DNA of 64,000 bases from a virus (IMGVR_UViG_3300049144_000095:64001-128000); one strand, 5' to 3'. Positions 7,998 to 62,647 are shown, numbered from the stretch's first letter. Notes: generated by a model from the sequence alone, not told the origin. Translations and numbers: made by a program.

Positions 7998-8009
7998 GGG
8001 CCTAGGCCA
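7998..8009. promoter_or_regulatory. Palindromic operator-like site (1 mismatch)
   Basis: GGGCCTAGGCCA upstream of 7960. Confidence 0.55.
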
Positions 8010-8249
8010 ACCATGCCTGCGAACTTAGATCGTTAGGAAGGGGTTCGCCGGAAACTGCGAAACCAGTTAACGGAGTTGACGAGAAAATCGCTGTTCCCGA
8101 TATGTCCAATGGTCATACAACCATCTGCACGTCTGGCGAGTCTCCTGGGGTCAGGGGCTACAGTTGGCACGACTGGTCAGCCCCGGTCCGAAGCAAACAG
8201 ATGTGACCCGCATCGCGATCGTCACATCATTCGCACCAGATGAGGGATC

Positions 8250-8543
8250 GTGCACGACATGGACTTCTTCTGCGGCCCTGCGGTACTTCATCTGGATGGA
8301 GAAGTGCTCAGCGCATACGCCTTCGTGGACTCGGCCCGTGACCGCAACTACGAGGACTGGGGCGGGTACATCGAGGTCGACGGTTACTCGGACGTCATTC
8401 GCTTCCGTGCCTTCGGGAGCCTCAACGTCTACCTCCAGATACCCGGAGCCTCGGCGCGCGATATCGAGATCTCCAGCACTGAACCCGACGGGCTGGTCTT
8501 CCGGGGCCTGGGCTCGTCCCCTCTTCCCGTTGCTGCGGAGTGA
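8250..8543 (+). CDS. Hypothetical protein
   Basis: GC3-rich ORF, beta-rich pattern. Confidence 0.6.
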   Translation: MHDMDFFCGPAVLHLDGEVLSAYAFVDSARDRNYEDWGGYIEVDGYSDVIRFRAFGSLNVYLQIPGASARDIEISSTEPDGLVFRGLGSSPLPVAAE

Positions 8544-8634
8544 GTTGCGGAAACCGGTTGACCGACCTGTTCTTTCCTGAAGGCGGCCATCTTTCGATTA
8601 CGGCCTGACCTTCGACCACCCATCAGGAGAGTTC

Positions 8635-9420
8635 ATGCGCCAAGTGCAGCCCAAGGTCCGCCTGATCGGACGTCCGAGTCTCGACTACGACGAGGTTGCC
8701 GCTTACCTCAAGGAAGTCGGAGGAGAGAGTTGGCTCGAACGGCTGGACAGGGGCGAACTGGATGACGCTCAGAACCTCGGAGAATTCGCCGGACGCATCT
8801 GCTATCGCTCCTGGCGGCCGGGGCTGAACTCGAACGTAACCCGGGTGCGCACCGACCAGGATGAGTACCTGGCGAACATCCTCTCCAGTGCCCACGGCAG
8901 CGTTCTGGAGCACCTGAACTTCAACTTCATCTTCCAGGACGTAAGTCGTGTCTTGACGCACGAGCAGGTCCGGCACCGCGTCGGCACGGCCATATCGCAG
9001 GAGAGCCTGCGATTCGTCCGCCTGGACGACATCTCCTTCTGGTTCCCCGAGTGGGCGCGGGAAGACGACGAGCTGTACGAGCGGGCCCTGCGAATGCTCG
9101 GACAGATGGAGGACTTCCAGGTGTGGATGGCCGAACACTTCGGCCTCGACGACGACGGACGGACCTTCGCGTACAAGAAGCACAGGACATCCTTCATGCG
9201 CAGGTTCGCACCGGAAGGGCTGGCGACGTCCCTCGCCTGGACGGCGAACGTAAGGACATTGCGGCACGTCATCGAGTCTCGCACCGCCGAAGGGGCGGAA
9301 GAGGAGATCCGTATCGTCTTCGGCAAGGTCGGCGAGCTGATGAAGAAGGAAGCCCCCGCCCTCTTCGGTGACTACACGATCGAGGACGGGGCCTGGGTTC
9401 CCGGCTGGCGCAAGGTGTGA
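8635..9420 (+). CDS. thyX: FAD-dependent thymidylate synthase ThyX
   Basis: RHRxxxxSQESxR signature (VRHRVGTAISQESLR), EFAGRICY, HGSVLEH. Confidence 0.95.
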   Translation: MRQVQPKVRLIGRPSLDYDEVAAYLKEVGGESWLERLDRGELDDAQNLGEFAGRICYRSWRPGLNSNVTRVRTDQDEYLANILSSAHGSVLEHLNFNFIFQDVSRVLTHEQVRHRVGTAISQESLRFVRLDDISFWFPEWAREDDELYERALRMLGQMEDFQVWMAEHFGLDDDGRTFAYKKHRTSFMRRFAPEGLATSLAWTANVRTLRHVIESRTAEGAEEEIRIVFGKVGELMKKEAPALFGDYTIEDGAWVPGWRKV

Positions 9421-9424
9421 TTCG

Positions 9425-9706
9425 TCAGAAGAGCGTCACCGTGCCCGGTTCGACTTCGACCCCTTCCTCCTCGAAGACCTCCTGCACGTAGGCGGCATCG
9501 ACCGCCTGGACGTGCTGCATGGAGCCAGGGCAGAGCACGAGGGACCTTGGCTCCTGCTTGTGGTCGTGGACACTGACTATGCCGATCCCCGTGGTGGGGA
9601 TCCCTGCCACCGGCTGGTCGCACACCGGGCACCGTACGCGGGGATACTTCGCCACCACCACAGGATCGGGCCTCCTCGGCATTTCGGACAGACCAGGAAT
9701 CGCCAT
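9425..9706 (-). CDS. Zinc-ribbon hypothetical protein
   Basis: CPVC...HDH...CPGS. Confidence 0.55.
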   Translation of the reverse strand: MAIPGLSEMPRRPDPVVVAKYPRVRCPVCDQPVAGIPTTGIGIVSVHDHKQEPRSLVLCPGSMQHVQAVDAAYVQEVFEEEGVEVEPGTVTLF

Positions 9707-9770
9707 TCCGGCACTTCCCTGCCAAGAGTGTTGCAGACGGGAGAGGTTGCCCGGCGGAGCGCCGGTCCGA

Positions 9771-9983
9771 TCAGCCGGGTCCACCTCCAGGTCCCCACGG
9801 GGTGCCGCAGGAGCGGCAGTACAGATATCCGGCGTATCCGCTGATGCCGCCCTCGCGGTTCAGGCACACGGCGGCACATTTTCCCCTCAGCTCGAACCAA
9901 GCCTCCCCGCATCGACAGGTTGCCCCGTCGTACCCCTCGGGACCGTGCGGGCGCCGGTGGTCGTCCAGATTGATCACTGTCAT
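9771..9983 (-). CDS. Small Cys-rich protein
   Basis: CRCG...CRSCG. Confidence 0.6.
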   Translation of the reverse strand: MTVINLDDHRRPHGPEGYDGATCRCGEAWFELRGKCAAVCLNREGGISGYAGYLYCRSCGTPWGPGGGPG

Positions 9984-10098
9984 GACTCAAGCGTCAGATA
10001 CGGTCCGTCGCCCCTCCAAGGGGAAACGGTGAAAAATCTCGACGCTAGGCGCATCCGGCTGACGGGAACGACCGGAAGGTGATGCGTCCGAGGAGGCG

Positions 10099-10269
10099 TC
10101 AGGGTCGGCCCTTCACGCAGTGCGAATCACCCCAGAGCGTGGGGCCGTTGCGATGCAAGGTGTCCTCTCCGTGCTTCCTGAGTTCGCAGATGACCGGCGG
10201 TCCGGGGAGATCGAGTCGTGCCAGGCAGTCCCGGTCCACATCGCGGAGATAGGAAGATCGTTCTGGCAT
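10099..10269 (-). CDS. Small hypothetical protein
   Basis: MPERSSY...CELRKHGEDTLH; start re-called. Confidence 0.4.
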   Translation of the reverse strand: MPERSSYLRDVDRDCLARLDLPGPPVICELRKHGEDTLHRNGPTLWGDSHCVKGRP

Positions 10270-10303
10270 GTCTCGATCATACGTATGTGGCAGCCTTGTC
10301 CGC

Positions 10304-10498
10304 ATGGCTCGCATGCTGGGAACTTTCGAACGCTCATGGTGCCCGAAGTGCAAAGGGCCAGCGGGGCCGGACTGCCCGGACGTGTCCATGCGGAAGAGGT
10401 CACGCAAGGCCCAGGAGAGGCGTGAGTGGTGCGCCGAGGCTCGTACGTACCTCCAGCGTTCACAGGCCGCCAATGACGTGGAGGCGTCCGCCTCGTAG
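10304..10498 (+). CDS. Small hypothetical protein
   Basis: MARMLG...WCPKCKGP...RKAQERREW. Confidence 0.45.
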   Translation: MARMLGTFERSWCPKCKGPAGPDCPDVSMRKRSRKAQERREWCAEARTYLQRSQAANDVEASAS

Positions 10499-10623
10499 GC
10501 GTTGAAACCGGTACACCCGGCATCCCCCTCCGGTCCATCCAGCCGTTCCCGCACCAGTGTGCAATATGAGCAACATGATGACTGGGTAGGGTTCTTCACG
10601 TTCGGGCAGCCACACCCTATGAT

Positions 10624-10635
10624 CGGCCTAGGCCG
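10624..10635. promoter_or_regulatory. Palindromic operator-like site
   Basis: CGGCCTAGGCCG; minus-strand TAGGGT at 10614-10619. Confidence 0.65.
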
Positions 10636-11194: not shown

Positions 11195-11695
11195 ATGCTG
11201 ACACTCGCAGCCAAGCTGAAGCATCTGGTCCGGCGCCTGTCCCCCGACCAGCCGTTCTCTGAGCGCCATCTGTCTGCGGCCGTCAGGGAGCTGCCTGGGC
11301 ACACGCGTGGAGGGTCCCGTACGGCCATCAACAAGCTGCTCCGGGGCATTGACGACAATCCCACGGTCGTGACCCTCATGGCGCTTGCTCAAGTCCTCGG
11401 GGCCCCAGCGCCCTTCCTCCTCCCTGGCTGGGACGACCTCACGGCTCTTTCGGTTCTCCAGAGGCGGCCCCAGGCGGTCGAGATCCTGCGACACCTGGAC
11501 GGGGTCCCCGAGGCAGACCTCCGCGATCTACTCGAAGACATAAAAAAGCGACGAATGGAACTCGGGTTGCCGCAGACCGTGGACCCGGTCCACATTGATC
11601 CGCACGATCAGAACGAGACCGACCCGCACGACCCCAGAAGGCGCAGCCCCAAGGACTCCGCCAGGTATGCGGCAGACTCCCTGGAAGGGACCTGA
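11195..11695 (+). CDS. XRE / EspR-like HTH regulator
   Basis: LAAKLKHL...SRTAINKLLRG...NPTVVTLMALAQVLG plus EspR-like C-terminal helices. Confidence 0.75.
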   Translation: MLTLAAKLKHLVRRLSPDQPFSERHLSAAVRELPGHTRGGSRTAINKLLRGIDDNPTVVTLMALAQVLGAPAPFLLPGWDDLTALSVLQRRPQAVEILRHLDGVPEADLRDLLEDIKKRRMELGLPQTVDPVHIDPHDQNETDPHDPRRRSPKDSARYAADSLEGT

Positions 11696-15799: not shown

Positions 15800-15817
15800 G
15801 CTGATTCAACCCTAGCA

Positions 15818-15829
15818 TGGCCTAGGTCA
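15818..15829. promoter_or_regulatory. Palindromic operator-like site
   Basis: TGGCCTAGGTCA; minus-strand TAGGGT at 15809-15814. Confidence 0.7.
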
Positions 15830-15980
15830 CCCATAAAGGCGCGACGGTGAAAGGGCAGGGCGAGTTGCCGACAGCGGGCGGCCCGGCCAGCGGCCCTCCC
15901 TTCGGCGCGTACTGGAGCTACGGCGCAGAAAGTTGGCGCGCGGACCGGGCCGACGGCGCGAGTCGTCAGTCACCCTCGGG

Positions 15981-16136
15981 CTACTCGTCCTTCAGGTAAC
16001 CGTGAATCTTCTTCTCCAGCTCGGACCAGTCGGGATCAGCGGGCACGATGCCGGAGTTGACCTCGTCGCTCTCGGCGAGGAAGTCGAGCATCTTCTGGTG
16101 TGGACTGTCGACGCGGGGTTGTGGCCCGTCCGACAT
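15981..16136 (-). CDS. Small acidic protein
   Basis: MSDGPQPRV; GAGGAAG SD directly after 606-aa gene. Confidence 0.55.
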   Translation of the reverse strand: MSDGPQPRVDSPHQKMLDFLAESDEVNSGIVPADPDWSELEKKIHGYLKDE

Positions 16137-16143
16137 GGCTTCC

Positions 16144-17964
16144 TCAGTTCGTCTGGTAGTTCGGCAGATGGGGGCCGAGGTGGCCGATGTAGATCTTGCC
16201 GGTCTCGCCGCTGGTGTCGTCGTGAAGATGCATGCGCGGCGCCGGGGGCTTGCCCGAGCCGATCCGGATGTGGGCCTCCATGACGATCCGGCCCGACGGG
16301 TCGACCTCCCGAGGGACCGGCAGCGTGCGCGCGGCAACGAAGCGGGAGTTCATCATCACGCCCTTCGAGTCGACCTTGGAATACCGCGTGGAGGGGATGA
16401 CGCACTCCGCCCTCGGGTCGGACAGGTATGCGTGGAAGTGGGGCACCTCCTCAACGCCGCGCTCTTTCTTCATCCGTGCGTACTCCTCCAGCGCCTGCAA
16501 GGCCTCCCAGGACCGCTGAATCCAGCGCCGCTCACTTGTGTGCCCACGCAGTTTGTCGACCTCGCCGTGGACCGGTCCGAGTACGACATACTCCAGTGAA
16601 GTAGCGCGAGCGAAGAACTCGTCCCACGTCTCCGGTGCGCTTTCCTGAACGGTATCGTGGGTCAGCTCGAAGGTGCTATTGAGACGGGCCAGCTCGCGAC
16701 GCAAGGAAGACACCTCCTGCCTCAAGGTCCGCACGTCATGCTGCTGGGCATCGAGCAGTTCTTCGGCCAGCTCTACTTCTTCTTCGGCTGCTTCCCGGGC
16801 GGCCATTTCACGCCCCAGGTCGCTGTCCCGAATCATGCAGAGGGCGCGATCCAGCTCCCTGCGCAACTTCCTTTCAGACTCCCGGGCCTCTTCTTCTCGC
16901 CTCTTCGACTCGCGCATCTCGGCGAGAAGGTTCTCTCCGGATGCCTTGAACTTCTCGATGAAATCCTTGCTTTCCTTCAAGGCTGAAAGAAGCTTCTCGT
17001 TCTCCTTCTCCAGCTCTTCGAGCCTGTCTGCCGCAGAGTCCATCAACTTCACCCTGTCGGTGTCGGTCATCAGGTTCCAGTCGGCTTCCAGCTCCTGGAT
17101 CGCCTCCGGGTCGGCAACCAAAACTCCGCTGGTCAACAACCTGCTCAGCGCACTAGAGAGAGGGCCGATGTCGCCCAGCTTCATGAAGGAGGGGTTCATG
17201 GGGAACGACAAGTCGGACCGTCGGAGACCCTTTCGACGCTCCGGGGAAAGGACGATAGCTGCCCCACCCGAGGGAAGCTCCGTCCCGTACTTGACCAGAG
17301 TGCGGTTCAGATCTTTCCGCATCGATTCCCCCATGATGCGGACGTCGATGACGCGTCCATACAGGCTGGGGGGCAGTCGGGATATGAGGGGCGTCGGATG
17401 ATTCAAGCCCTCGCTGCCGAGGATTCTGTCCAGATCCATGTCGTCATGCGTAACGACGATGGCGGCGAACTTGAGGTTGGTCATCGAAGACAGCAGGCCA
17501 GCAAACTGTGCGCCCATTCTTGGGTGCAGAAGGTTGTACCCGACGTACTCCAGGCTTGCGTAGCGTGGATTCGACTTGCGATCCAGGAAGACAGACAATG
17601 GGGACGGCCATGCCGGATTCCACGGACGATCCGCCTTGGCGTACGCGTGAAAGAATCCGGACCTCGGATTATCGGCCGGGTCGTACTCGTGCGGCTCGAT
17701 GGCTGGCTGCTGTCGCTGGCTGGTCGCCCCCGGCTTGACATCATGCACGTTCAGACGGCCACGGACCTGCGCACCGTCCGGGGTGACCCATACGGCATCG
17801 TAGGACCACCAGCCTCCCGACACCTTCGTGTCGAGATGCGGCTCGTGCAGGATGACGTGTTTGTTGGCGGCCACCCGCTTTGCCACTTGCTCCACACTGG
17901 GCAGCACGTCCATGTTGCCCGTGGTATGCCAACCGGTCTCGTACGATGGATCTTTCTTCGGCAT
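16144..17964 (-). CDS. Coiled-coil protein with RelE/ParE-like C-terminal domain
   Basis: Central heptad-rich coiled coil; C-terminus MEAHIRIGSGKPPAPRMHLHDD...KIYIGHLGPHL. Confidence 0.6.
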   Translation of the reverse strand: MPKKDPSYETGWHTTGNMDVLPSVEQVAKRVAANKHVILHEPHLDTKVSGGWWSYDAVWVTPDGAQVRGRLNVHDVKPGATSQRQQPAIEPHEYDPADNPRSGFFHAYAKADRPWNPAWPSPLSVFLDRKSNPRYASLEYVGYNLLHPRMGAQFAGLLSSMTNLKFAAIVVTHDDMDLDRILGSEGLNHPTPLISRLPPSLYGRVIDVRIMGESMRKDLNRTLVKYGTELPSGGAAIVLSPERRKGLRRSDLSFPMNPSFMKLGDIGPLSSALSRLLTSGVLVADPEAIQELEADWNLMTDTDRVKLMDSAADRLEELEKENEKLLSALKESKDFIEKFKASGENLLAEMRESKRREEEARESERKLRRELDRALCMIRDSDLGREMAAREAAEEEVELAEELLDAQQHDVRTLRQEVSSLRRELARLNSTFELTHDTVQESAPETWDEFFARATSLEYVVLGPVHGEVDKLRGHTSERRWIQRSWEALQALEEYARMKKERGVEEVPHFHAYLSDPRAECVIPSTRYSKVDSKGVMMNSRFVAARTLPVPREVDPSGRIVMEAHIRIGSGKPPAPRMHLHDDTSGETGKIYIGHLGPHLPNYQTN

Positions 17965-18013
17965 GTCCTGAATCTTTCCTTTCGCTCAAGTACATCTTGC
18001 ACCCTGCCACTGA

Positions 18014-18054
18014 CAGAGGTGCCAAAAGTCCCGAAAGGACGCCTGGCACCTCTG
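18014..18054. terminator. 11-bp hairpin
   Basis: CAGAGGTGCCA / TGGCACCTCTG just past a minus-strand stop. Confidence 0.55.
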
Positions 18055-18058
18055 CTGA

Positions 18059-18265
18059 TCACTTCTCCGAGGCTTCGGCCGCTGCCACGACGGCCGCCGC
18101 GTTCAGTTCCGGCCCGGCATCCGGTCCCTGGTAGTTGCCGCCGCAGGAGCAGTGGTGACCGTCGTAGATGTAGCAGTACTTGAAGTGCGGGCCGCCAGGC
18201 AGACGGTTGTTGTTCAGGACGGTCTGAAGGGTCAGGAAGTTCACGGTCGATGTCCTCTCGCTCAT
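18059..18265 (-). CDS. Hypothetical protein
   Basis: AAGGAG SD. Confidence 0.55.
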   Translation of the reverse strand: MSERTSTVNFLTLQTVLNNNRLPGGPHFKYCYIYDGHHCSCGGNYQGPDAGPELNAAAVVAAAEASEK

Positions 18266-18272
18266 GACGGTC

Positions 18273-18509
18273 TCACTCCTTGTCGGCGAAGGCGCTGCCG
18301 CCCTGGCTCTCCAGCTCGGCGAGACGCACCAAGTCGCTGGCGGCGCGATTGGTCACGCCGTATTTCTTGCGAAGGAAGGTGGCGGCGAGGCGCAGTGTCC
18401 CTTCATGTCCCTGCTCGGCCTTCAGGTCAGCCACCAGCTCTTCGGCGCGCTGGAGACCGACCTTCTCCGTCAGGAGGTGGATGATTTGGTCTTCGGCGGA
18501 TGCGGTCAC
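18273..18509 (-). CDS. Hypothetical protein
   Basis: GTG start re-called (VTASAEDQ). Confidence 0.55.
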   Translation of the reverse strand: MTASAEDQIIHLLTEKVGLQRAEELVADLKAEQGHEGTLRLAATFLRKKYGVTNRAASDLVRLAELESQGGSAFADKE

Positions 18510-18555
18510 GCTCGGTACCCTCGTTCCTTGTTGATCCTTGAGGCGCTGTCGATGT

Positions 18556-18879
18556 TCACGTTTCCTGTGCAAGCTTGCGCGCATGGGCCTCGACGAGGTC
18601 CGCCAGTCCAAGGAGGGACCGCGCGATCCCGCCGGACCAGTCGTGCCCCTCGCGACGAATGGCCTCCGCGTCGCCGGATTGCACGGCAGCGTCCACCATC
18701 TCGCGGACTCGATCGGCCACAGGGGCGGCGAGGAGGATGAGATCTTCCCGTACCCGTCGGTGAGCTTCAGCGAGGTCGGCCACATGGCAGATGTCCTCAC
18801 AGGTACCGCCCTTGCCCGGTCCGGTGTGCCAGCCGTTGATGCAGGGCCCGCACAGACTGGACCATCGGTGCTGTGACAT
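18556..18879 (-). CDS. Hypothetical protein
   Basis: LCGPC...H...C. Confidence 0.6.
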   Translation of the reverse strand: MSQHRWSSLCGPCINGWHTGPGKGGTCEDICHVADLAEAHRRVREDLILLAAPVADRVREMVDAAVQSGDAEAIRREGHDWSGGIARSLLGLADLVEAHARKLAQET

Positions 18880-19109
18880 CAGTCCTCCTGGAAGAACGCG
18901 GGTCCGTCGTACTGTCGGAGCACCAGGCGGCGCCCTTTGTGCTTCTCGCGAGTCGACTGGAAGTGCGACACGGTGTCCTCCAGGGCCGTCTCACCGGCGT
19001 TGCTGCCGAAGCTGATGAGTTCACCAGTGACGGCATCGTGGATGCGGTAGTGCACCCAGTTCAGCTCGGCGGCGGAAGTGAGCGACCTGCCCTGCCAGAT
19101 GTCAGCCAT
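18879..19109 (-). CDS. Hypothetical protein
   Basis: MADIWQG; coupled. Confidence 0.6.
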   Translation of the reverse strand: MADIWQGRSLTSAAELNWVHYRIHDAVTGELISFGSNAGETALEDTVSHFQSTREKHKGRRLVLRQYDGPAFFQED

Positions 19110-19482
19110 GTCGCGCCTCGGCATCGTTGGCCCGCGCGATCTCGGCCTCGGCCAACTGGTCAAGTTCCGAATCCGCGAGGAGGACGAAAGCCGCCCTGGG
19201 TACCCAGCCGACCGTCGCTTCGACTCCCACCTGACGAACGTTGTCGCGACTTCCTCGCGCCTGATAGGCGCTCTCGAAGTACTTTGATTCCGCTTCCGGG
19301 AACCGGCCGTTCGGTATGGTCTTCACCCGGTAGAGTCGGTCGCCACCCTCGGTGCTGGCAGTGCGATCCGGGGCGGATGCGAGGAGGGCGTTCAGAAGAG
19401 AACAGGCGTCCTCGGCGTCCATCCCGGACCGGATGAGGTGGGTGAGGGTGAGTGATCGGTAGCGTGCGTGGCCGATGCTCAC
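19102..19482 (-). CDS. Hypothetical protein
   Basis: GCGGAAGGGGGGAGG SD. Confidence 0.6.
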   Translation of the reverse strand: MSIGHARYRSLTLTHLIRSGMDAEDACSLLNALLASAPDRTASTEGGDRLYRVKTIPNGRFPEAESKYFESAYQARGSRDNVRQVGVEATVGWVPRAAFVLLADSELDQLAEAEIARANDAEARHG

Positions 19483-19751
19483 GAGCCTCCCCCCTTCCGC
19501 TCGGCTGCGTACAGCTCGACGGTCTCCTTGGTGGCCGCGTAGCGTGCGGCGGCTACGATGAACTGCTGAATGTCCTGGGCGAGGGAGTTCACCCTGCCGG
19601 TGGCAATGCCGGAGTCGACGTCCCCCGCGAGGCGGGCGGCGGCTTCTGCGATGTCCTGGGCGTCACGAGTGAGGCTGGCCCTGGCGTTCTCCAGTCGAGA
19701 TGTGAGGGCGCGCTCGACCGTGTACGGAGATGCCTTGTCGTTGTTGTTCAA
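19479..19751 (-). CDS. Helical hypothetical protein
   Basis: ACGGAAGGGAG SD; first gene after operator 19790. Confidence 0.65.
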   Translation of the reverse strand: MNNNDKASPYTVERALTSRLENARASLTRDAQDIAEAAARLAGDVDSGIATGRVNSLAQDIQQFIVAAARYAATKETVELYAAERKGGGS

Positions 19752-19789
19752 GTTCCTTCTCCCTTCCGTGTGTTCAAGTCTACCGGAAA

Positions 19790-19801
19790 TGACCTAGGCC
19801 G
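19790..19801. promoter_or_regulatory. Palindromic operator-like site between divergent promoters
   Basis: TGACCTAGGCCG; minus TAGACT at 19777-19782, plus TACGCT near 19825. Confidence 0.75.
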
Positions 19802-19837
19802 TGGAGGCCGAGTCTCATTGTGGCTACGCTGTTCCCC

Positions 19838-20239
19838 ATGTCTGAGAAATGGGGGGCGGGCGACCAGCCTTGGCTGCGACGCCATCAGCCCGAAGCAACG
19901 TACAACCCGGTTCCAGCATCGGAGCTGTTGCAGTGCCTGTTCTGTGGAGCCAGGACTCTGAAGCGCTCGGCCTCCGACCGCCCCGAGGATTCCAATCGCC
20001 TGGAACTGTACTGCGACAACAGCCGGTGCGATGCCCGCGAGATGGTCTTGCTGGTACTGAGGGACAAGCAGCCCGGACTCAGGGCTGACGTGAAGGCTCT
20101 CCGGCTCGTGGACGACGGCACGCTGGACGTGCACAAGGCCTTCCCGCCCGAGGTGAAGTCGGACGACCTGTTCGACCTCCTGGAAGACCGGCCGAACATC
20201 GTCGGCCGCCGGATGCGCAAGACGTCCACGGACGGCTGA
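19838..20239 (+). CDS. Zinc-ribbon hypothetical protein, probably leaderless
   Basis: CLFC...CDNSRC; TACGCT 7 nt before ATG. Confidence 0.6.
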   Translation: MSEKWGAGDQPWLRRHQPEATYNPVPASELLQCLFCGARTLKRSASDRPEDSNRLELYCDNSRCDAREMVLLVLRDKQPGLRADVKALRLVDDGTLDVHKAFPPEVKSDDLFDLLEDRPNIVGRRMRKTSTDG

Positions 20240-20294
20240 CCCCCCATCGGGCGGCCTGCGTCGAGCTGCGGAAAAGTCGCCCGATGCAGGCCGC

Positions 20295-20954
20295 CTAGTC
20301 TTCGAGGTGCGCCGGGGATGCATCGTTCAGCCGGATCAGTTGCTCTTGTGCCTCGTTGCGCTGCCGCAGGTACTCCTCGACTTCGAAGCGTAGGGAGGCC
20401 TCGATTGAAGAGCCAAGCTCGGCGTCGGCATACCGTGCGGCCAGCCGGTACAGCAAGGCTGGCACCTGTTCGCGAGGGATTGTGCCGACGACCTGAACGT
20501 CCGGTCCGACCTTGCTGATCTTGATGTCCCACTCCTGGTCGTTCAGAGCGGTATCCAGGCGCATCTGAAGACGGGTCAACTGATCCGCATATCGACGGAT
20601 CCAGTCAGGGTGCGTGTCCTTCATCTCTGCGATGTGTCGTCCAGCATCATCGACCCACGCCAGAAGCTGTTCGTCGGTGGCGGTGTCGACCATCCACCGA
20701 AGATCCGAACGCAGCGCTTCAACCTCTTCCCTGTGTCGTTGCTGCTCCCGATTGAAGACGCCTTCCGGATGCAACACAAGAAGGAGGCCGCTGGCCGACC
20801 GAGTACCCCAGGTGCACCCACCGCTGGAGCGGTGCCGGTCCGTCCCGTGGCTCCTCGGCAGTATGCAGATCAGAGCTGAACCATCGAGGTCGCGAACGCG
20901 GTCACCGCAAGTTCTGGGGTGAAGAAGACGCCAGAGGGTCCTTGCGAGATTCAT
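20295..20954 (-). CDS. Hypothetical protein
   Basis: Helical, GC3-rich. Confidence 0.55.
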   Translation of the reverse strand: MNLARTLWRLLHPRTCGDRVRDLDGSALICILPRSHGTDRHRSSGGCTWGTRSASGLLLVLHPEGVFNREQQRHREEVEALRSDLRWMVDTATDEQLLAWVDDAGRHIAEMKDTHPDWIRRYADQLTRLQMRLDTALNDQEWDIKISKVGPDVQVVGTIPREQVPALLYRLAARYADAELGSSIEASLRFEVEEYLRQRNEAQEQLIRLNDASPAHLED

Positions 20955-21024
20955 GGGCCTGAGTATTCCCCAGGTGCCTCTTCCCGCGAAGGCCACGGGA
21001 AGAGGCGACGCCTATGATAGTTCA

Positions 21025-21237
21025 GTGCCAACCGACTACCGCGAGCCCCATGTTGACTGCGACAACTGCGGAGCGCACGCCGACCTCCCCACGCCGCCTG
21101 GCGCCCACTACAGCGTTGGCCGGAAGAAGCTGGCCGAGGCGGGCTGGACCTACCGGCCCAACCATGCTGAGCGGCCTTTGGTCATGCTGCCGCACACGTA
21201 CATCTGGAACTGCCCAGACTGTCCTTCCGTGGACTAG
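21025..21237 (+). CDS. Small zinc-binding protein, probably leaderless
   Basis: CDNC...CPDC; TATGAT 6 nt before GTG. Confidence 0.5.
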   Translation: MPTDYREPHVDCDNCGAHADLPTPPGAHYSVGRKKLAEAGWTYRPNHAERPLVMLPHTYIWNCPDCPSVD

Positions 21238-21401
21238 AGGCGCCACAGGCCAGCGCAGTGACAGCCGCGCTTGACGCTGTGACGGCGGCCCCAGCCCCAG
21301 AAGATCTCGTCGCAGGGCTGGCAGTACTTCTTCCAGCCGATCTGCCACAGCAGGTACTCCCACTCCGCCTTGACCCACGTCTTTGTTACGGGGTGGGTCA
21401 T
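21234..21401 (-). CDS. Small Trp/Cys-rich protein (55 aa)
   Basis: MTHPVTKTW...YCQPCDEIFWGW; overlap-coupled. Confidence 0.45.
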   Translation of the reverse strand: MTHPVTKTWVKAEWEYLLWQIGWKKYCQPCDEIFWGWGRRHSVKRGCHCAGLWRL

Positions 21402-21865
21402 GTCCACCACCGTCGGATGTCGGCGCCACGATGACGGGCGTACGCCACCATCTCCTCCATGCGCCTTACGTCCTCATGGGTGCGGCTGGGCCAGGCGCGC
21501 TGAAGGAACCACACCTCCCAGGTGTCGAGCTGGCACCCTTGCATGTCTTCGAACCTGACGGCGACCTTGCATTCGGCTGGGTCGAACTCGGACTCCCGCA
21601 TGAACAGCCGGGCGACGCGAACGCTCGATGCAATGATCATCCGCCGAACGGGCTGGCGCTGCACGCCCTCCCCGTCGTAGCGATAGAACCAGAGCGGCCC
21701 CTCGTTGCCCGGGTTCACCTCGCGACGGTAGACCAGCTTGCGTACTCCGTGACCGTTGCTCGCGTGCATGATCTGGTAGGTCTCCGGGGGGTTCATCGGA
21801 TCCCCGGAGATCACAAGGTCTGTTCCGTCGGCCGGACCTTCCACCAGCCGGACCTCTACGGGCAT
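21398..21865 (-). CDS. Hypothetical protein
   Basis: MPVEVRLVEGPADG start re-called. Confidence 0.55.
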   Translation of the reverse strand: MPVEVRLVEGPADGTDLVISGDPMNPPETYQIMHASNGHGVRKLVYRREVNPGNEGPLWFYRYDGEGVQRQPVRRMIIASSVRVARLFMRESEFDPAECKVAVRFEDMQGCQLDTWEVWFLQRAWPSRTHEDVRRMEEMVAYARHRGADIRRWWT

Positions 21866-21878
21866 ACCGCCAACCCCT

Positions 21879-22190
21879 TCAGTCGTGTGATCCGATCCAG
21901 TCGAACTGGCCAGGGTCGTCCCGGTACAGGGCGACCAGCGTCTCCTCGTGGGGCTCCAGCGGGGCGCGGCACACCTCGCTGCCGCAACACGGCGACAAGG
22001 CGAATCGGCAGCCGGTCTTGAGGAGCAGCAAGGTGTCCCGGCACTCGGCGCAGAATCCGTGCAGCAGGTTGTCCGGGTCATCCCGCCGGTCGCACCCGGC
22101 ACAGATCGGGTTGACAGGGTTGGCCCGGTCCCAGTCCCGCTTGGCCTTGTGGCGGCCCAAGGCTGCAATGATCTCCCGCTCTTCGTTCAC
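21879..22190 (-). CDS. Cys-rich hypothetical protein
   Basis: CAGC...CAEC...CC...C. Confidence 0.6.
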   Translation of the reverse strand: MNEEREIIAALGRHKAKRDWDRANPVNPICAGCDRRDDPDNLLHGFCAECRDTLLLLKTGCRFALSPCCGSEVCRAPLEPHEETLVALYRDDPGQFDWIGSHD

Positions 22191-22199
22191 GCGTCCCCC

Positions 22200-22604
22200 T
22201 CACAGCCCCTTGCGCAGCTCGTGCAGTGTCGGCCCCTCGCCGTTCTTCGTGCGCCACAGCGTCCACCCGTTGATGACGTTACCCGTCACCGCCTCGGCTG
22301 CCTTCGAGGGAGACCAGAACACTTCGGAATGACCTTCGACCACGATGCCGCCGTTGGCCTGTACCCGAGCCCGCCCAGTGCGCTTCGCCCTCCGCTGATA
22401 GAAGGCCAGCTCCTCTTCCGGCTTGAGGAGGCCTGCCTTGAGCAGTCTGGCCAACTGCCCCTTGATCACAGTTTGGCCGGGAGGCAGTGCAGGTTCGATC
22501 CTGTCGGGTCCGAGCTTGATGCTGATGCTGATGACGTCGGTGGCCCCCGCGTTGGCCAGGCGAGCAATCACCGTGGGGTCAAGATCGATCTTGAGTGTAG
22601 TCAT
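22200..22604 (-). CDS. RAMA-domain (DUF4357-like) protein
   Basis: LLKAGLLKP...FWSPSKAAEAVTGNVINGWTLWR...TLHELR. Confidence 0.75.
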   Translation of the reverse strand: MTTLKIDLDPTVIARLANAGATDVISISIKLGPDRIEPALPPGQTVIKGQLARLLKAGLLKPEEELAFYQRRAKRTGRARVQANGGIVVEGHSEVFWSPSKAAEAVTGNVINGWTLWRTKNGEGPTLHELRKGL

Positions 22605-22705
22605 GCGTGCCCCTGTTCGGCTGTTGTCCTCCTGTGCAGCATAGCATTTCAGCGACGCAGGAGGACTGATAGACTAACGCTGCAAGCCGAAGGGGAGGGT
22701 GACCA

Positions 22706-23668: not shown

Positions 23669-23714
23669 CGAGGGGGAAATGAACGAAGATGCCGGGCGAG
23701 CTGACCTTTCCCCC

Positions 23715-24305
23715 TCAAGCGGCCTCGCGGTGGCCGCCCAGCTCTTCGAAGACCAGCCCGACGAAGAAGCCGTCCAGCCAGTGGCTGCCCACCAGCGCCT
23801 TGACTGCTGCATGGTTGGCCACTGGCACCTCCTGGGCCAGGATGTTGCGCGCCTGAAACGACCGGACGGTGCTCACGAAGCCCAAGGTGTCCAGGTGGAT
23901 GACCTTGGCGAAGATCTCGGTGCGGCTCTGCTCGTCGGCCTGTGCGAGCTTGTGGTTGATGTTCGCCAGCGCGATGCGGTCCAGGAAAGCCTCCGACTTT
24001 CGACCCCTGCCTTCCTGGGCGTACGCCAGCGCGCCGAAGGTGAACCCTTCAGCCCAGGCCGCTCCGAGCCTCATCAGCAGCTCGTCCGGCGTGGAGTTCT
24101 CCAGCCTGACCTTCTGCGAGGTCTCTTCAGTCCGGCGCTTCCCGTGGTTCATCACCATGTCGTAGTCGAAGCGCCGGTTCAGTGCCTGCTCCGGTCCGAC
24201 CTTCACGATCTCCGCCTCGATGGCGTTGGTTGCGTCCACGATGCGCTCGTAGTCCGGATCGCCACTGGGGCGGTTCTCGTCGATCCACCGCTGCTGGTCC
24301 TGCAC
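23715..24305 (-). CDS. Hypothetical protein with two internal repeats
   Basis: AWAEGFTFGAL and HWLDGFFVGL motifs. Confidence 0.6.
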   Translation of the reverse strand: MQDQQRWIDENRPSGDPDYERIVDATNAIEAEIVKVGPEQALNRRFDYDMVMNHGKRRTEETSQKVRLENSTPDELLMRLGAAWAEGFTFGALAYAQEGRGRKSEAFLDRIALANINHKLAQADEQSRTEIFAKVIHLDTLGFVSTVRSFQARNILAQEVPVANHAAVKALVGSHWLDGFFVGLVFEELGGHREAA

Positions 24306-24364
24306 TTTTCTCTCCTCTTTCCGGGGGTCAGTCGATCTTAGACTGACGCCCCAGGAAGGCAGCG

Positions 24365-24634: not shown

Positions 24635-24636
24635 GT

Positions 24637-25504: not shown

Positions 25505-25539
25505 GCCGCGACCCTGCGGCGCAGAGGGGTCAACGGGCT

Positions 25540-27102: not shown

Positions 27103-27114
27103 TGACCTAGGCCG
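27103..27114. promoter_or_regulatory. Palindromic operator-like site
   Basis: TGACCTAGGCCG; minus TAGGAT at 27093-27098; contains the TAG stop of upstream gene. Confidence 0.75.
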
Positions 27115-29100: not shown

Positions 29101-29112
29101 TGGCCTAGGCCG
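29101..29112. promoter_or_regulatory. Palindromic operator-like site between divergent promoters
   Basis: TGGCCTAGGCCG; minus TAGACT 29091-29096, plus TAATCT 29125-29130. Confidence 0.75.
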
Positions 29113-30742: not shown

Positions 30743-30752
30743 CCCGAGTCAG

Positions 30753-32130: not shown

Positions 32131-32951
32131 ATGGGACAGACTCCCGTGCTGGCCAGTGGAGCGCACACACGCGCGTAGGGAGCCTGTTTCCCCAGGTCAG
32201 ACCTAGTGTCAGGACAAATGGGACACCCCTCCTGACCTGCGATGTTTGCAGTTGGCCTATTGCTGACAGAACGTCTCGTAAGCAATCGCGCCGACACAGT
32301 GAACCGAGCAACAAAAGCCCAGCTCAGAGGCATGATCAGCGTTGATCCCGACATATGGGACAGGCTTGTGACCTGCGGTTATGTCGAGCCGAGTGCAGGT
32401 TTCGAGCGAGAGAAATACCGTCGCCTCTCGTCTCATCTAGAGGCATAAGGCTTGGTTCCACTCTTGTGTTCTCTTGTCTGTATGTGTCTACACAGACACA
32501 CCAAACTGGACACATGGGACAGAACTTCTTTCCGTGCTGGTCAAGTGCCTTTTTCTGCACTTCTTTGCGACCCCCTTTGACTCCCCCGAAACCCTCCCCG
32601 ACCCTGTCCGTTTCGCCCTGACATGCGGGACTTTCTCCTGTGACCTGGGTCACACATTCGAGTGGAAAGCAGTTTCCACTAGCGTTTGCATACCCCCCAG
32701 CTTTCGCAAATCGCTGCCCTTGTATCGCCATGTATGTCCGTTTCCCTCATGGGGCTCTGATCCCTGAGACCCCTTCTGACCTGCACAAATAACTTTCTCG
32801 CTAGCATCGTCGCAGGTCATACAGCATGGCCTAGGCCGTTATCTGTTCGTTACCAACTTCCCTTTTGTTGCTGGTCAGAGCGCTATCCAAGTCGCGACCC
32901 GGCATGTCCTGACTTTTGGGAGCCTGGAGCGGACAGAGCCATGACCTGCGG
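32131..32951. repeat. Iteron-like cluster: ATGGGACAS x4 and TGACCTG(C/G)-type x10
   Basis: ATGGGACA at 32131, 32218, 32355, 32514; TGACCTG variants at 32191, 32232, 32369, 32535, 32618, 32641, 32776, 32811, 32869, 32942 on both strands. Confidence 0.7.
32827..32838. promoter_or_regulatory. Palindromic operator-like site in hub
   Basis: TGGCCTAGGCCG. Confidence 0.65.
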
Positions 32952-38044: not shown

Positions 38045-38056
38045 TGGCCTAGGCCG
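38045..38056. promoter_or_regulatory. Palindromic operator-like site
   Basis: TGGCCTAGGCCG; TAACCT at 38034-38039. Confidence 0.7.
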
Positions 38057-42510: not shown

Positions 42511-42522
42511 CGGCCTAGGTCA
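42511..42522. promoter_or_regulatory. Palindromic operator-like site
   Basis: CGGCCTAGGTCA; TAGAGT at 42538-42543. Confidence 0.7.
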
Positions 42523-54983: not shown

Positions 54984-55040
54984 ACGCCTGGACGGTAATT
55001 CAGGCAAGAGTCACGAACGGGCTACTGAGTTCTGCTATCG

Positions 55041-55052
55041 TGGCCTAGGCCG
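55041..55052. promoter_or_regulatory. Palindromic operator-like site
   Basis: TGGCCTAGGCCG abutting extended -10 TGCTATCGT (55033-55041). Confidence 0.75.
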
Positions 55053-55057
55053 ACGGG

Positions 55058-55099
55058 TTCGGGAGTGGCCGGTCCTTCACGGGACCGGCCACTGACGTA
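55058..55099 (+). repeat. Conserved intergenic hairpin element (GACG-tail class)
   Basis: TTCGGG-AGTGGCCGGTCC-loop-GGACCGGCCACT-GACGTA. Confidence 0.85.
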
Positions 55100-55122
55100 C
55101 TTGCCGGACACGGAAGGGAGAA

Positions 55123-61389: not shown

Positions 61390-61398
61390 GCCGGTGCG

Positions 61399-61434
61399 TT
61401 CGGGAGGACAGGACGCGCGTCCTGTCCTCCAGTG
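61399..61434 (+). repeat. Conserved intergenic hairpin element
   Basis: TTCG-GGAGGACAGGAC-GCGC-GTCCTGTCCTCC-AGTG, perfect 12-bp stem. Confidence 0.85.
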
Positions 61435-61461
61435 CACATCGGATCGGAGAAGGGACAAAGG

Positions 61462-61887
61462 ATGACCACCGAGAACACGCTGACCAGCATGATCACCGGT
61501 AACTGGGAGCTGTTCGCCTTCCTGTGGCCGATCGCCCTCGGCGAGCCGGTCGGCCCCGACGGAGACGTCTTCGGATACGGGGATGACCAGCTCGCCGAGT
61601 GGGTGATTCAGATGCTCAACGGCGAGACGCAGAACTGGCCTTCCCTACTGAGCCGCCTCACCTCCACCGACGCCGAGCTGTGGAAGAAGGGGCGTACCCT
61701 CATCGTCGCCCAGGTCGAGAATCTGGACGACGAGGGGTGGGCGCGAGTCCGTGAGGGGTTGATGACGGCTCACCCGGACCGCGAGATCCCTTGCCCGTAC
61801 TGTGCGACTCGGGTGCTGGCCACCGAGGACGCGTTCCACAAGCACTACCAGCAGGACAAGTGCTGGGAGGACGACGACGAGAACTGA
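61462..61887 (+). CDS. Hypothetical protein with C-terminal zinc finger
   Basis: CPYC...FHKHY...C. Confidence 0.7.
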   Translation: MTTENTLTSMITGNWELFAFLWPIALGEPVGPDGDVFGYGDDQLAEWVIQMLNGETQNWPSLLSRLTSTDAELWKKGRTLIVAQVENLDDEGWARVREGLMTAHPDREIPCPYCATRVLATEDAFHKHYQQDKCWEDDDEN

Positions 61888-61907
61888 TCCGGCAGAAGGA
61901 GTGGAAC

Positions 61908-62090
61908 GTGAGCGGTATCGAGCAGCAGGTCAGTGCCGTCCTGGGTGATCATGCCAGCGACTACGACATACCGGGCATCGTGGAGGAGATTCACAGGTTG
62001 TACGGCCCGGTCGTCAGCATCAACGAAATCCACGGTCCTGCCTGGCTCGGAATCCTGGATCGCAACGAAGCGAAACTGATGAGGGCGTGA
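61908..62090 (+). CDS. Small hypothetical protein
   Basis: AAGGAG SD; DYDIPGIVEEI. Confidence 0.6.
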   Translation: MSGIEQQVSAVLGDHASDYDIPGIVEEIHRLYGPVVSINEIHGPAWLGILDRNEAKLMRA

Positions 62091-62133
62091 ACGCGACCGA
62101 AGGAAAGCTCATCGAGCGGCTGAAGGGAACAGA

Positions 62134-62289
62134 GTGATCAAAGGCAAGATCGAGTTCACCGGAGAGACTATCGAGGACGTCCGGGCGGCGATCGAGGAGG
62201 CGCTGAACCGGATCAACCTCGGCAACATCACCGGCTTCGATCGCAACGAGTCCGGCAGCTTCAGCTTCGACGTCAACCACGACGCCTGA
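62134..62289 (+). CDS. Small protein (51 aa)
   Basis: MIKGKIEFTGETIEDV...GFDRNESGSFSFDV. Confidence 0.6.
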   Translation: MIKGKIEFTGETIEDVRAAIEEALNRINLGNITGFDRNESGSFSFDVNHDA

Positions 62290-62313
62290 ACTGGCCAGCG
62301 GAAAGGGGAGAAA

Positions 62314-62598
62314 ATGGAACTGACGGCTCCGCAGGGTGAGCACGAAATCACCCTTTACCAGCAAATGGACGGTGGCTGGACCGAGTTCGCCACCGGTCGC
62401 GGCAACGTCTCCGCAGGGGCGACGCGAAGCGATGTGGTGCAGGGCCTCACGGAGTTCGTCCAGGAGGTGCTGCGGAACAGCAGCACGCCTCGGGAGGAGC
62501 GTCCACTGCTGCATCAGGTGCTCGCTTCCGCCACGGTCCCTCCGTTCGGCATGATCGCCGTCAACGGCTTCGGTACCGAGATGGTTGTCGAAGCCTGA
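62314..62598 (+). CDS. Hypothetical protein
   Basis: GCGGAAAGGGGAG SD. Confidence 0.65.
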   Translation: MELTAPQGEHEITLYQQMDGGWTEFATGRGNVSAGATRSDVVQGLTEFVQEVLRNSSTPREERPLLHQVLASATVPPFGMIAVNGFGTEMVVEA

Positions 62599-62618
62599 AG
62601 CGGCCAGCGGCAGTTCGA

Positions 62619-62647
62619 TGGACGAGAGTGGCCTAGGTCAGTAGGAT
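62619..62647 (+). promoter_or_regulatory. sigma70-type promoter with palindromic operator in its spacer
   Basis: TGGACG-17 nt-TAGGAT; TGGCCTAGGTCA at 62629-62640. Confidence 0.75.

What the first reader, a model, noticed from the sequence alone, without database searches (positions are those of the whole stretch)
7998..62640. Eleven-copy palindrome YGRCCTAGGYCR overlapping promoters on both arms: candidate master operator regulon
Seen: exact matches at 10624, 15818, 19790, 27103, 29101, 32827, 38045, 42511, 55041 and 62629, plus a 1-mismatch copy at 7998; all are intergenic or at a stop codon. A rough estimate (70% GC, independent bases) gives about 0.2 expected copies in 64 kb, and CTAG is generally avoided in Streptomyces DNA. 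In most cases a TAGRRT-like -10 lies 1-15 nt downstream on the strand of the next gene (TAGGAT 62642 and 27093; TAGACT 19777 and 29091; TAGGGT 10614 and 15809; TAGAGT 42538; TAATCT 29125). In two cases the -10 lies just upstream (55036, 38034). At 62619 the site fills the spacer of TGGACG-17-TAGGAT. Inference: this is a repressor (or activator) binding network that switches on accessory and early blocks together, analogous to phiC31 conserved inverted repeats or L5 stoperators. Candidate binders in the window are the EspR-like HTH, PadR, the multi-HTH protein and the AlpA-like protein.
Basis: partly seen in the sequence, partly recalled or inferred. Interest (0 to 1): 0.8.

Follow-up and report, generated by a model that had tools for sequence, protein, structure and literature searches.

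The report
Phage GntR-repressor operator network
A 12-base palindrome sits on about 30 promoters of a 251-kb Streptomyces jumbo phage and is most likely the docking site of the phage's own DasR/NagR-like (GntR/HutC) repressor, a sound but fairly ordinary regulatory circuit that has not been described in print for these phages.

Summary
The window holds 10 exact copies of YGRCCTAGGYCR plus one copy with an outer mismatch, against 0.03-0.14 expected. The whole 251-kb genome holds 30 copies of the core, and all are intergenic. The genome is a BM-cluster-like Streptomyces jumbo siphophage. Satis, JustBecause and Frankenweenie each carry 15 copies, and all 15 Satis sites map to orthologous gaps here.

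The palindrome lies next to -10-like hexamers at variable positions. Sometimes it covers the start site and sometimes it fills the -35/-10 spacer. That is how an operator behaves, not a promoter element.

The best candidate binder lies outside the window: a 244-aa GntR/HutC protein (genome 210-944, the orthologue of Satis gp101).
- Its own promoter carries the palindrome.
- It keeps the two arginines and the glycine that NagR uses to read DNA.
- The site matches the DasR/NagR dre operator at 10 of 12 positions.
- Orthologues down to 44% identity keep the site, while relatives with changed reading residues have different palindromes.

Nothing here is experimentally shown. This scan reached the same reading earlier on two related phage genomes.

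The parts
7998..8009 (.). Operator copy with one outer mismatch (GGGCCTAGGCCA), between divergent genes 7370-7960(-) and 8250-8543(+)
   Evidence: A TAAGTT -10-like hexamer lies on the minus strand at 8022-8027, so the operator would sit just downstream of the start site of the leftward gene.
10624..10635 (.). Operator copy CGGCCTAGGCCG. A leftward TAGGGT (10614-10619, minus strand) lies 5 nt from the 10-bp core, so the operator sits in the promoter spacer.
15818..15829 (.). Operator copy TGGCCTAGGTCA. A leftward TAGGGT (15809-15814, minus strand) lies 4 nt from the core. This site is in lineage-specific DNA.
19790..19801 (.). Operator copy TGACCTAGGCCG between divergent genes 19479-19751(-) and 19820-20239(+). 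A leftward TAGACT lies at 19777-19782.
27103..27114 (.). Operator copy TGACCTAGGCCG. A leftward TAGGAT (27093-27098) lies 5 nt from the core, and the RBS and ATG of gene 26750-27064(-) follow.
29101..29112 (.). Operator copy TGGCCTAGGCCG flanked by two divergent -10-like hexamers. TAGACT (29091-29096, minus strand) is on one side. TAATCT (29125-29130, plus strand) is on the other and ends 7 nt before the ATG at 29137, which suggests a leaderless mRNA.
32827..32838 (.). Operator copy TGGCCTAGGCCG in the low-GC, gene-poor 31.2-33.9 kb stretch. It lies about 400 bp from the point that aligns with the start of the Satis terminal repeat. The target gene is unclear.
38045..38056 (.). Operator copy TGGCCTAGGCCG, orthologous to Satis 181134. 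TAACCT (38034-38039, plus strand) lies 6 nt upstream, so the operator covers the start site. The RBS and ATG of gene 38079-38408 lie 23 nt downstream.
42511..42522 (.). Operator copy CGGCCTAGGTCA, orthologous to Satis 179121. The -10 is ambiguous: TACACT at 42496-42501 upstream or TAGAGT at 42538-42543 downstream. Satis and JustBecause have TATGAT 8 nt upstream.
55041..55052 (.). Operator copy TGGCCTAGGCCG, orthologous to Satis 171827. TATCGT (55036-55041) abuts it (TAGTCT in JustBecause), so the operator spans about -6 to +5. A conserved leader hairpin follows.
62629..62640 (.). Operator copy TGGCCTAGGTCA, orthologous to Satis 166396. It fills the 17-nt spacer between TGGACG (62619-62624) and TAGGAT (62642-62647). 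The whole arrangement is conserved in Satis and JustBecause.

Best explanation
YGRCCTAGGYCR is the operator of a phage-encoded GntR/HutC-family repressor. That protein has a winged-HTH domain plus a UTRA effector domain, is 244 aa long, and is encoded at genome 210-944 on the minus strand, outside the window. It is the orthologue of Satis gp101.

Proposed mechanism: a dimer binds the 12-bp palindrome, and each winged HTH reads the GG at positions -5/-4 with two arginines (R34, R44), as NagR does. Each operator lies either over the -10/+1 region or inside the -35/-10 spacer of a host-sigma-type promoter, so the bound protein blocks RNA polymerase.

The targets are about 30 transcription units of small non-structural (early or accessory) genes, plus the repressor's own gene (autoregulation). 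The 57-kb replication and virion block has no sites. An unknown small molecule bound by the UTRA domain would release the repressor.

Shown here: the motif statistics, its intergenic and promoter-adjacent placement, its conservation in relatives, and the family membership and reading residues of the protein. Inferred: the binding itself, the direction of regulation (repression), the transcription start sites, and the existence of an effector.
For: (1) Non-random and intergenic: 29 exact copies against at most 0.6 expected, and 30 of 30 cores intergenic.

(2) Conserved: Satis, JustBecause and Frankenweenie have 15 copies each. All 15 Satis sites map to orthologous gaps here, with the 12-mer invariant while the flanks diverge.

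(3) Operator-like placement: 26 of 32 gene-oriented sites have a TANNNT hexamer within -19 to +26, which is 3.6 times the intergenic background. The hexamer either abuts the site upstream (TACGAT, TAGACT or TAAGCT directly before GGCC, with the RBS and ATG only 14-30 nt downstream) or lies 2-16 nt downstream. Examples of the second kind are TTGACA-c-GGCCTAGGCC and TGGACG-N17-TAGGAT.

(4) Cognate protein: Pfam GntR plus UTRA. A profile of the family hits NagR/YvoA at E=2.6e-24 and DasR at 2e-18. R34, R44 and G65 align with NagR R38, R48 and G69, which read G-5, G-4 and the minor groove.

(5) The site equals the dre core TGGTCTAGACCA at 10 of 12 positions and keeps the HutC layout with a central TA.

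(6) Autoregulatory copy: a site lies 23 nt before the gene's start codon, with conserved upstream promoter sequence.

(7) Covariation across relatives:
- Ten IMG/VR loci and four other contigs, with orthologues at 44-73% identity, all keep YGGCCTAGGCCR 20-60 nt upstream of the gene.
- One orthologue with R34 changed to Leu has T[C/A]GCCTAGGCAA instead, that is, position +/-5 is changed.
- Fourteen more distant homologues lack one or both reading arginines (R34 mostly Lys; R44 mostly His). They carry different CTAG-centred palindromes upstream, such as GCGCTACTAGTAGCGC.

(8) No sigma-factor domain is detectable in the genome.
Against: There is no binding, expression or start-site data. Only soil-metagenome DNA runs hold this sequence.

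The -10 assignments rest on sequence alone, and several sites have no good -35.

Other conserved HTH proteins exist in this phage group, for example a small HTH_26 protein next to the UvrD-like helicase (Satis gp84), and they are not excluded.

The Arg-to-Leu covariation rests on a single lineage seen over only 20 kb.

Position -3 is C in all 60 half-sites but T in dre sites and in the HutC consensus (GT...AC), so the site is not a canonical HutC operator.

Position -7, which NagR reads through its wing, is not conserved here.
Confidence: 0.72

Rival explanations
1. The palindrome is an operator, but it is bound by a different conserved phage DNA-binding protein. One candidate is the small Cro/C1-like HTH_26 protein next to the UvrD-like helicase (orthologue of Satis gp84). 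Another is one of the other annotated HTH proteins (Satis gp87, gp152).
For: Several HTH proteins are annotated in Satis. The HTH_26 protein is present in distant relatives that keep the site, and its operon lies downstream of one of the sites.
Against: The site resembles HutC operators, not typical Cro sites. The GG pair matches the two retained arginines of the GntR protein. The palindrome upstream of the GntR gene changes when the GntR reading residues change.
Confidence: 0.1
2. The sites are read by a host regulator, either DasR or another chromosomal HutC-type protein. This would tie phage early transcription directly to the host's N-acetylglucosamine or nutrient status.
For: The site matches the DasR dre core at 10 of 12 positions. 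NagR makes no base-specific contact at position -3. Chromosomal homologues of the phage protein exist in Streptomyces and Kitasatospora at about 40% identity.
Against: Position +/-3 is C/G in 60 of 60 half-sites, whereas dre has T/A. The genome has no canonical GGTCTAGACC at all. The phage carries its own regulator with a site on its own promoter, conserved down to 44% identity. The chromosomal homologues lack the second reading arginine.
Confidence: 0.07
3. The palindrome is a promoter element or activator site that switches the blocks on. It could be a recognition element for a phage transcription factor or alternative sigma factor, or a MerR-like spacer-binding activator.
For: In about half of the sites with a downstream -10, the palindrome lies at a fairly constant 4-5 nt before a TAGRRT hexamer, and several of these promoters lack a convincing -35.
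Against: The position relative to the -10 ranges from abutting upstream to 16 nt upstream of it. Perfect dyad symmetry does not suit sigma recognition. No sigma70 r2 or r4 domains were found. HutC-family proteins are almost always repressors.
Confidence: 0.06
4. The motif is not a transcription-factor site. Instead it is a restriction/modification target (CCTAGG is the AvrII site), a recombination or packaging signal, or an RNA hairpin.
For: CCTAGG is a known restriction site and CTAG is strongly avoided in the genome. The core can form a 3-4 bp hairpin.
Against: All copies are intergenic and promoter-adjacent with specific flanks beyond CCTAGG. The hairpins fold no better than shuffled sequence. 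In many sites transcription would start inside the palindrome. One copy sits on the promoter of a regulator whose family reads such palindromes.
Confidence: 0.02

Closest known systems
DasR (Streptomyces) and NagR/YvoA (Bacillus subtilis) with their dre operators, GntR/HutC subfamily
   Same: The domain architecture is the same: GntR winged HTH plus UTRA. The full-length profile match to NagR has E=2.6e-24. The two arginines and the wing glycine that read the DNA are retained. The operator is a TA-centred palindrome with GG at -5/-4 and equals TGGTCTAGACCA at 10 of 12 positions. Sites overlap core promoters.
   Different: Position +/-3 is C/G in every half-site rather than T/A, and no conserved bases lie beyond 12 bp. 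The regulator is encoded by a phage and controls 15-30 phage promoters rather than sugar-catabolic operons. Of the two phosphate-binding arginines of NagR, only one aligns with a conserved arginine, and the pocket helix carries a 5-residue insertion, so the effector is probably not GlcNAc-6-P.
KorSA, TraR and KorA, the GntR/HutC 'kil-override' repressors of Streptomyces conjugative plasmids and AICEs (pSAM2, pSVH1, pSN22, pIJ101)
   Same: Each is a HutC-type, autoregulated central repressor carried by a Streptomyces mobile element that keeps element genes silent. The pSN22 TraR DNA-binding domain (PDB 1v4r) is a hit to the family profile. This phage group also carries FtsK/TraB-like and SpdB_N-like genes.
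   Different: Their reported sites are different and are mostly repeats, for example TTTGGTACACAACT for pSVH1 TraR and AC[TC]T[AG]TT[GC][TG][GT]ACG for SCO3932. They control one to a few promoters, not 30, and act in plasmids or ICEs rather than a virion-forming jumbo phage.
Cluster A mycobacteriophage operators and stoperators (L5 gp71), and phiC31 conserved inverted repeats
   Same: A phage regulator has many (about 20-30) short conserved sites dispersed through intergenic regions of the genome.
   Different: Stoperators are asymmetric 13-mers oriented with transcription, and they act partly inside operons. The binding proteins belong to other families. The comparison with phiC31 CIRs rests on my recollection only and was not tested here.

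Membership tests
GntR/HutC repressor-operator system | A regulator with a GntR winged HTH and a UTRA (chorismate-lyase-fold) effector domain is encoded in the same genome | tested here: met
   Pfam GntR (1.1e-8) and UTRA (1e-16) on genome 210-944(-). The family profile hits NagR at E=2.6e-24 over the full length.
GntR/HutC repressor-operator system | DNA-reading residues equivalent to NagR Arg38, Arg48 and Gly69 are present | tested here: met
   R34, R44 and G65 align with them. The roles of the residues are taken from PMC4333415.
GntR/HutC repressor-operator system | The operator is a palindrome of the type NyGTMTAKACNy, with a central TA and 4 nt between GT and AC | tested here: inconclusive
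   The central TA, the spacing and the G at -4 fit. Position -3 is C rather than T in 60 of 60 half-sites.
GntR/HutC repressor-operator system | An autoregulatory site lies in the regulator's own promoter and is conserved with the gene | tested here: met
   The site lies 23 nt before the start codon here. It is present upstream of orthologues at 44-73% identity in 14 further loci.
GntR/HutC repressor-operator system | Direct, sequence-specific binding and release by an effector | not testable with these tools
   Needs EMSA, footprinting or DAP-seq and ligand screening.
Host DasR dre regulon | Match to the dre consensus A(G/C)TGGTCTAGACCA(G/C)T, including T/A at +/-3 | tested here: not met
   All 60 half-sites have C/G at +/-3, and there is no GGTCTAGACC or GTCTAGAC anywhere in the genome.
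Sigma-factor promoter element | Fixed distance to the -10 or start site, and a cognate sigma factor or RNA polymerase encoded by the phage | tested here: not met
   The distance to the -10 varies from abutting upstream to 16 nt upstream of it. No Sigma70_r2 or r4_2 domain was found.
Cluster A stoperators | An asymmetric 13-bp site oriented with the direction of transcription | tested here: not met
   The site is a symmetric 12-bp palindrome.

The most novel reading that the evidence does not exclude
The phage uses a ligand-sensing HutC repressor as a metabolic gate. While a host metabolite is absent (or present), the repressor holds some 30 early and accessory promoters shut, so the 251-kb genome can sit quietly in the mycelium as an episome or, in this integrase-bearing relative, as a prophage. 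The single C-for-T change at +/-3 keeps the phage regulon insulated from the host DasR regulon. Newly acquired accessory DNA is recruited to the circuit by gaining the 12-mer: 15 sites in 186-kb relatives, 30 sites here.
Probability: 0.25. Interest if true: 0.7.

Novelty: new member of a known kind. Interest (0 to 1): 0.45.

Why it matters
If confirmed, this would give BM-cluster Streptomyces jumbo phages their first defined regulatory circuit, made of one repressor, one 12-bp operator and a list of 15-30 target promoters. It would also be an example of a phage using a small-molecule-sensing HutC regulator as its global switch.

That would make several questions testable with Satis on S. lividans. 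What signal releases early transcription? Can these phages persist quietly in mycelium? How does accessory DNA get wired into an existing regulon?

The operator/repressor pair, which differs from the host dre site at one position per half-site, could also serve as an orthogonal switch for Streptomyces engineering.

Tried and rejected
- Megablast of 8 kb of the window against GenBank phages found nothing. Relatives were found only at protein level.
- The E. coli-type sigma-70 consensus scan found no promoters in 37 kb. I consider it uninformative for 65% GC Streptomyces-type promoters, so I used TANNNT enrichment instead. One scan call (60) failed on a size limit.
- No tRNAs were found in the window.
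- Sequencing runs: no RNA holder is listed, only soil-metagenome DNA runs, so no start-site or expression evidence could be obtained.
- The genome search could not reach the 272-kb and 199-kb contigs behind L066 and L067. The variant motif of the R34-to-Leu lineage could therefore be examined over only 20 kb.
- A first Markov simulation timed out and was replaced by an analytic expectation.
- Full-text search for GGCCTAGGCC found no relevant paper, and the BM genome announcement I read (Satis/JustBecause) does not mention the motif.
- RNA-hairpin reading: the folds are no better than shuffles.
- Pfam scans of about 40 window proteins found only PadR and one HTH_3 among possible DNA binders.
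- I did not run a structure or complex prediction. The family assignment was already clear from sequence, and the complex tool does not take DNA.


Full report
WHAT THE DNA IS

The window is bases 64001-128000 of a single 251,159-bp contig with 65% GC. The contig ends overlap by 156 nt, so the assembly is circularly permuted. IMG/VR holds it as a virus record that CheckV rates complete. The only sequencing runs that hold it are soil metagenomes.

The genome encodes a terminase, portal protein, capsid/protease, DNA polymerase, primases and a DnaB-like helicase. Its portal protein is 80-83% identical to those of the BM-cluster Streptomyces siphophages Satis, Kradal, JustBecause, Kela and Frankenweenie, which are 184-200 kb long. 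The BM genome announcement I read (Satis/JustBecause) says nothing about promoters or repeats.

About half of my 415 rough gene calls have a homologue in Satis or JustBecause. In the window, positions 13.1-33.9 kb have almost none. The tyrosine integrase (5069-6175) and the PadR gene (6619-6918) have none either.

All eleven coordinates are right. Exact 12-mers number 10 in the window and 29 in the genome, against 0.03-0.14 and 0.07-0.57 expected under Markov orders 0-3.

The 10-bp core GRCCTAGGYC occurs 30 times, and it accounts for 30 of the 36 CCTAGG in the genome. CTAG itself is eight-fold under-represented, 106 against 811 expected.

All 30 cores lie in the 16% of the genome that is non-coding. 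None lies in the 57 kb between 6.8 and 64 kb, which holds the replication and virion genes. Under uniform placement that absence has a chance of about 4e-4 (my arithmetic).

Pooling the 60 half-sites gives A-G-G-Y-C-R and no information beyond position 6. The element is therefore a strict 12-bp palindrome.

CONSERVATION

Satis, Frankenweenie and JustBecause each have exactly 15 cores, at syntenic positions. All 15 Satis sites map to orthologous intergenic gaps in this genome. Window sites 38045, 42511, 55041 and 62629 belong to this conserved set.

In three-way alignments the 12-mer is invariant while the flanks drift at about 70% identity. The other seven window sites lie in the rearranged left-end region (7998, 10624) or in the lineage-specific block (15818-32827). 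The site count therefore doubles in this larger genome, and the extra window copies lie in DNA the relatives lack.

OPERATOR OR PROMOTER ELEMENT?

I oriented each site by its downstream gene. In 26 of 32 site-gene pairs a TANNNT hexamer lies within -19 to +26 of the core, which is 3.6 times the intergenic background. Two arrangements occur.

(i) The hexamer abuts or lies just upstream of the palindrome. Examples are TACGAT|GGCC, TATCGT|GGCC and TACAAT|GGCC. Relatives have TAGACT, TAAGCT or TAGTCT at the same spot. The ribosome-binding site and start codon are only 14-30 nt downstream, which leaves no room for a downstream promoter. The palindrome then spans roughly -6 to +5.

(ii) The palindrome lies 2-16 nt upstream of a Streptomyces-type TAGRRT hexamer, inside the spacer. 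Window 62629 shows a conserved TGGACG-N17-TAGGAT. Genome 246132 shows TTGACA-c-GGCCTAGGCC. The left-arm sites have 4-5 nt between the core and TAGGGT, TAGGAT or TAGACT.

Window 29101 sits between two divergent -10-like hexamers.

A symmetric element whose distance to the -10 varies this much behaves like an operator that occludes RNA polymerase. It does not behave like a sigma-recognition element. No sigma70 region 2 or region 4 domain is detectable in the genome. The start sites are inferred from sequence only.

WHO BINDS IT

The site at genome 968 lies 23 nt upstream of a 244-aa gene (210-944, minus strand). Its orthologue in Satis, gp101, is annotated 'helix-turn-helix DNA-binding protein' and is the lone rightward gene in a long leftward block.

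Pfam finds GntR plus UTRA in this protein, which places it in the HutC subfamily. DasR is among its best hits in the PDB. A profile of 18 homologues matches NagR/YvoA over the full length at E=2.6e-24.

In the NagR-DNA crystal structures the palindrome GTGGTCTAGACCAC is read as follows: Arg38 reads G-5, Arg48 reads G-4, and the wing Gly69 reads G-7 through the minor groove (PMC4333415). These residues align with R34, R44 and G65 of the phage protein.

The phage site TGGCCTAGGCCA has an invariant G at -5, G (80%) or A at -4, and the same CTAG centre. It equals the dre core at 10 of 12 positions, and the difference is C instead of T at -3 in all 60 half-sites. It keeps the spacing of the HutC consensus NyGTMTAKACNy but not its T/A at +/-3.

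COVARIATION ACROSS RELATIVES

- Orthologues at 44-73% identity keep YGGCCTAGGCCR 20-60 nt upstream of the gene. This holds in metagenomic and isolate-assembly contigs (L067, L070, L071, L072) and in ten IMG/VR loci. One of these genomes has only 59% GC.
- One orthologue (P0067, on a 272-kb contig in a Streptomyces sp. assembly) has Leu in place of R34. It carries TCGCCTAGGCAA and TAGCCTAGGCAA upstream of its gene and no GGCCTAGGCC in 20 kb. The base that this arginine would read is the one that changed.
- Fourteen more distant homologues on 83-153-kb viral contigs lack one or both reading arginines: R34 is mostly Lys and R44 is mostly His. They have other CTAG-centred palindromes upstream, for example GCGCTACTAGTAGCGC.
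- A second HutC paralogue is found in this genome but not in Satis or JustBecause (250377-251111; R34 to Pro, R44 to Thr). It has the related inverted repeat GAGCTAGTA-N16-TACTAGCTC before its gene and nowhere else in the genome.

These patterns fit each HutC protein reading the palindrome on its own promoter. This is correlation, not a binding assay.

PadR (6619-6918) and the HTH_3 protein (11195-11695) exist, but neither has a homologue in Satis or JustBecause. Those phages keep 15 sites each, so these proteins cannot be the conserved binder.

RIVAL EXPLANATIONS

- A different conserved HTH protein, such as the HTH_26 protein beside the UvrD-like helicase, cannot be excluded. Nothing specifically points to it.
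- Host DasR is a plausible cross-reader because NagR does not contact position -3. However, the invariant C/G at +/-3, the absence of any canonical dre in the genome, and the phage's own autoregulated regulator all argue for a dedicated, insulated system.
- Restriction-site and RNA-hairpin readings fail on placement and on folding energy.

LIKELY BIOLOGY (INFERENCE)

HutC proteins are typically effector-released repressors. Streptomyces plasmids and integrative elements use HutC-type KorSA and TraR proteins as autoregulated central repressors. Here the targets are operons of small non-structural genes, the tRNA and small-RNA region, and the regulator itself. The virion and replication modules are spared.

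The circuit could time the shut-off of early genes, or it could hold the genome quiet in a carrier state. Three observations hint at the second option:
- Contigs of 185-272 kb bearing orthologues turn up in Streptomyces isolate assemblies.
- This relative carries an integrase.
- The UTRA domain has many invariant charged residues, including one of the two phosphate-binding arginines of NagR.

The effector is unknown.

RELATION TO EARLIER NOTES OF THIS SCAN

After I had reached this reading, I found two earlier follow-ups on related phage genomes that came to the same conclusion. This window adds four things: the doubling of the site count through lineage-specific DNA, the two promoter arrangements, the residue-operator covariation across three protein groups, and the second paralogue.

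VERDICT

This is a new, unpublished member of the HutC repressor-operator kind, used genome-wide by a jumbo phage. It is of moderate interest and is readily testable with Satis on S. lividans.

Noticed in passing
outside the window: genome 250377-251111 (+), L011:2377-3111; upstream L011:2320-2360: A second GntR/HutC paralogue (28% identical to the first) that has no detectable counterpart in Satis or JustBecause. It is convergent with the first gene. Its upstream region has the inverted repeat GAGCTAGTA-N16-TACTAGCTC, found nowhere else in the genome. Distant homologues on 83-93-kb viral contigs have related GCTACTAGTAGC palindromes.
   Followed up: partly
window 31200-33950: A low-GC (0.60), gene-poor stretch where the strand bias of genes and the GC skew flip. 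The first 115 bp of the Satis terminal repeat align to window 32301-32415, so the physical genome ends or terminal repeat of this phage probably lie here. The contig itself is circularly permuted, with a 156-nt end overlap.
   Followed up: partly
window 13100-33900, and 4600-8000: A 21-kb block of small genes with almost no homologue in Satis or JustBecause. A separate insertion carries a tyrosine integrase (5069-6175) and a PadR regulator (6619-6918). This BM-like phage may be temperate, unlike its described relatives.
   Followed up: partly
window 55053-55100: A strong hairpin (agtggccggtcc...gggaccggccact) directly after the operator at 55041, in the leader of the next gene. It is conserved in Satis and JustBecause.
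   Followed up: no
outside the window: genome 22636-22647 and 157796-157807: Half-conserved copies (TGGCCTAGGCTA and CGGCCTAGGGTG) in intergenic DNA, which may be weak operators. Window CCTAGG at 31170 and 58998 lack the flanks.
   Followed up: no
window 1273-1830(-), 3702-4598(-), 8644-9420(+), 22200-22604(-): Accessory genes found in passing: a class I methyltransferase, a thermolysin-like M4 peptidase, ThyX, and a RAMA-domain protein (a domain associated with restriction enzymes and adenine methylases).
   Followed up: no
L066, L067, L070-L072 and (relatives): Phage-length contigs (185-272 kb) bearing orthologues of the regulator occur in assemblies of Streptomyces isolates. Relatives carry FtsK/TraB-like, SpdB_N-like, SLT, NlpC/P60 and M23 genes near the regulator, which resembles Streptomyces conjugative-plasmid kil-kor modules. 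The 272-kb relative has a fatty-acid/polyketide-type gene set (KAS III, ketoreductase, acyl-CoA oxidase, acyltransferase) next to the regulator.
   Followed up: no
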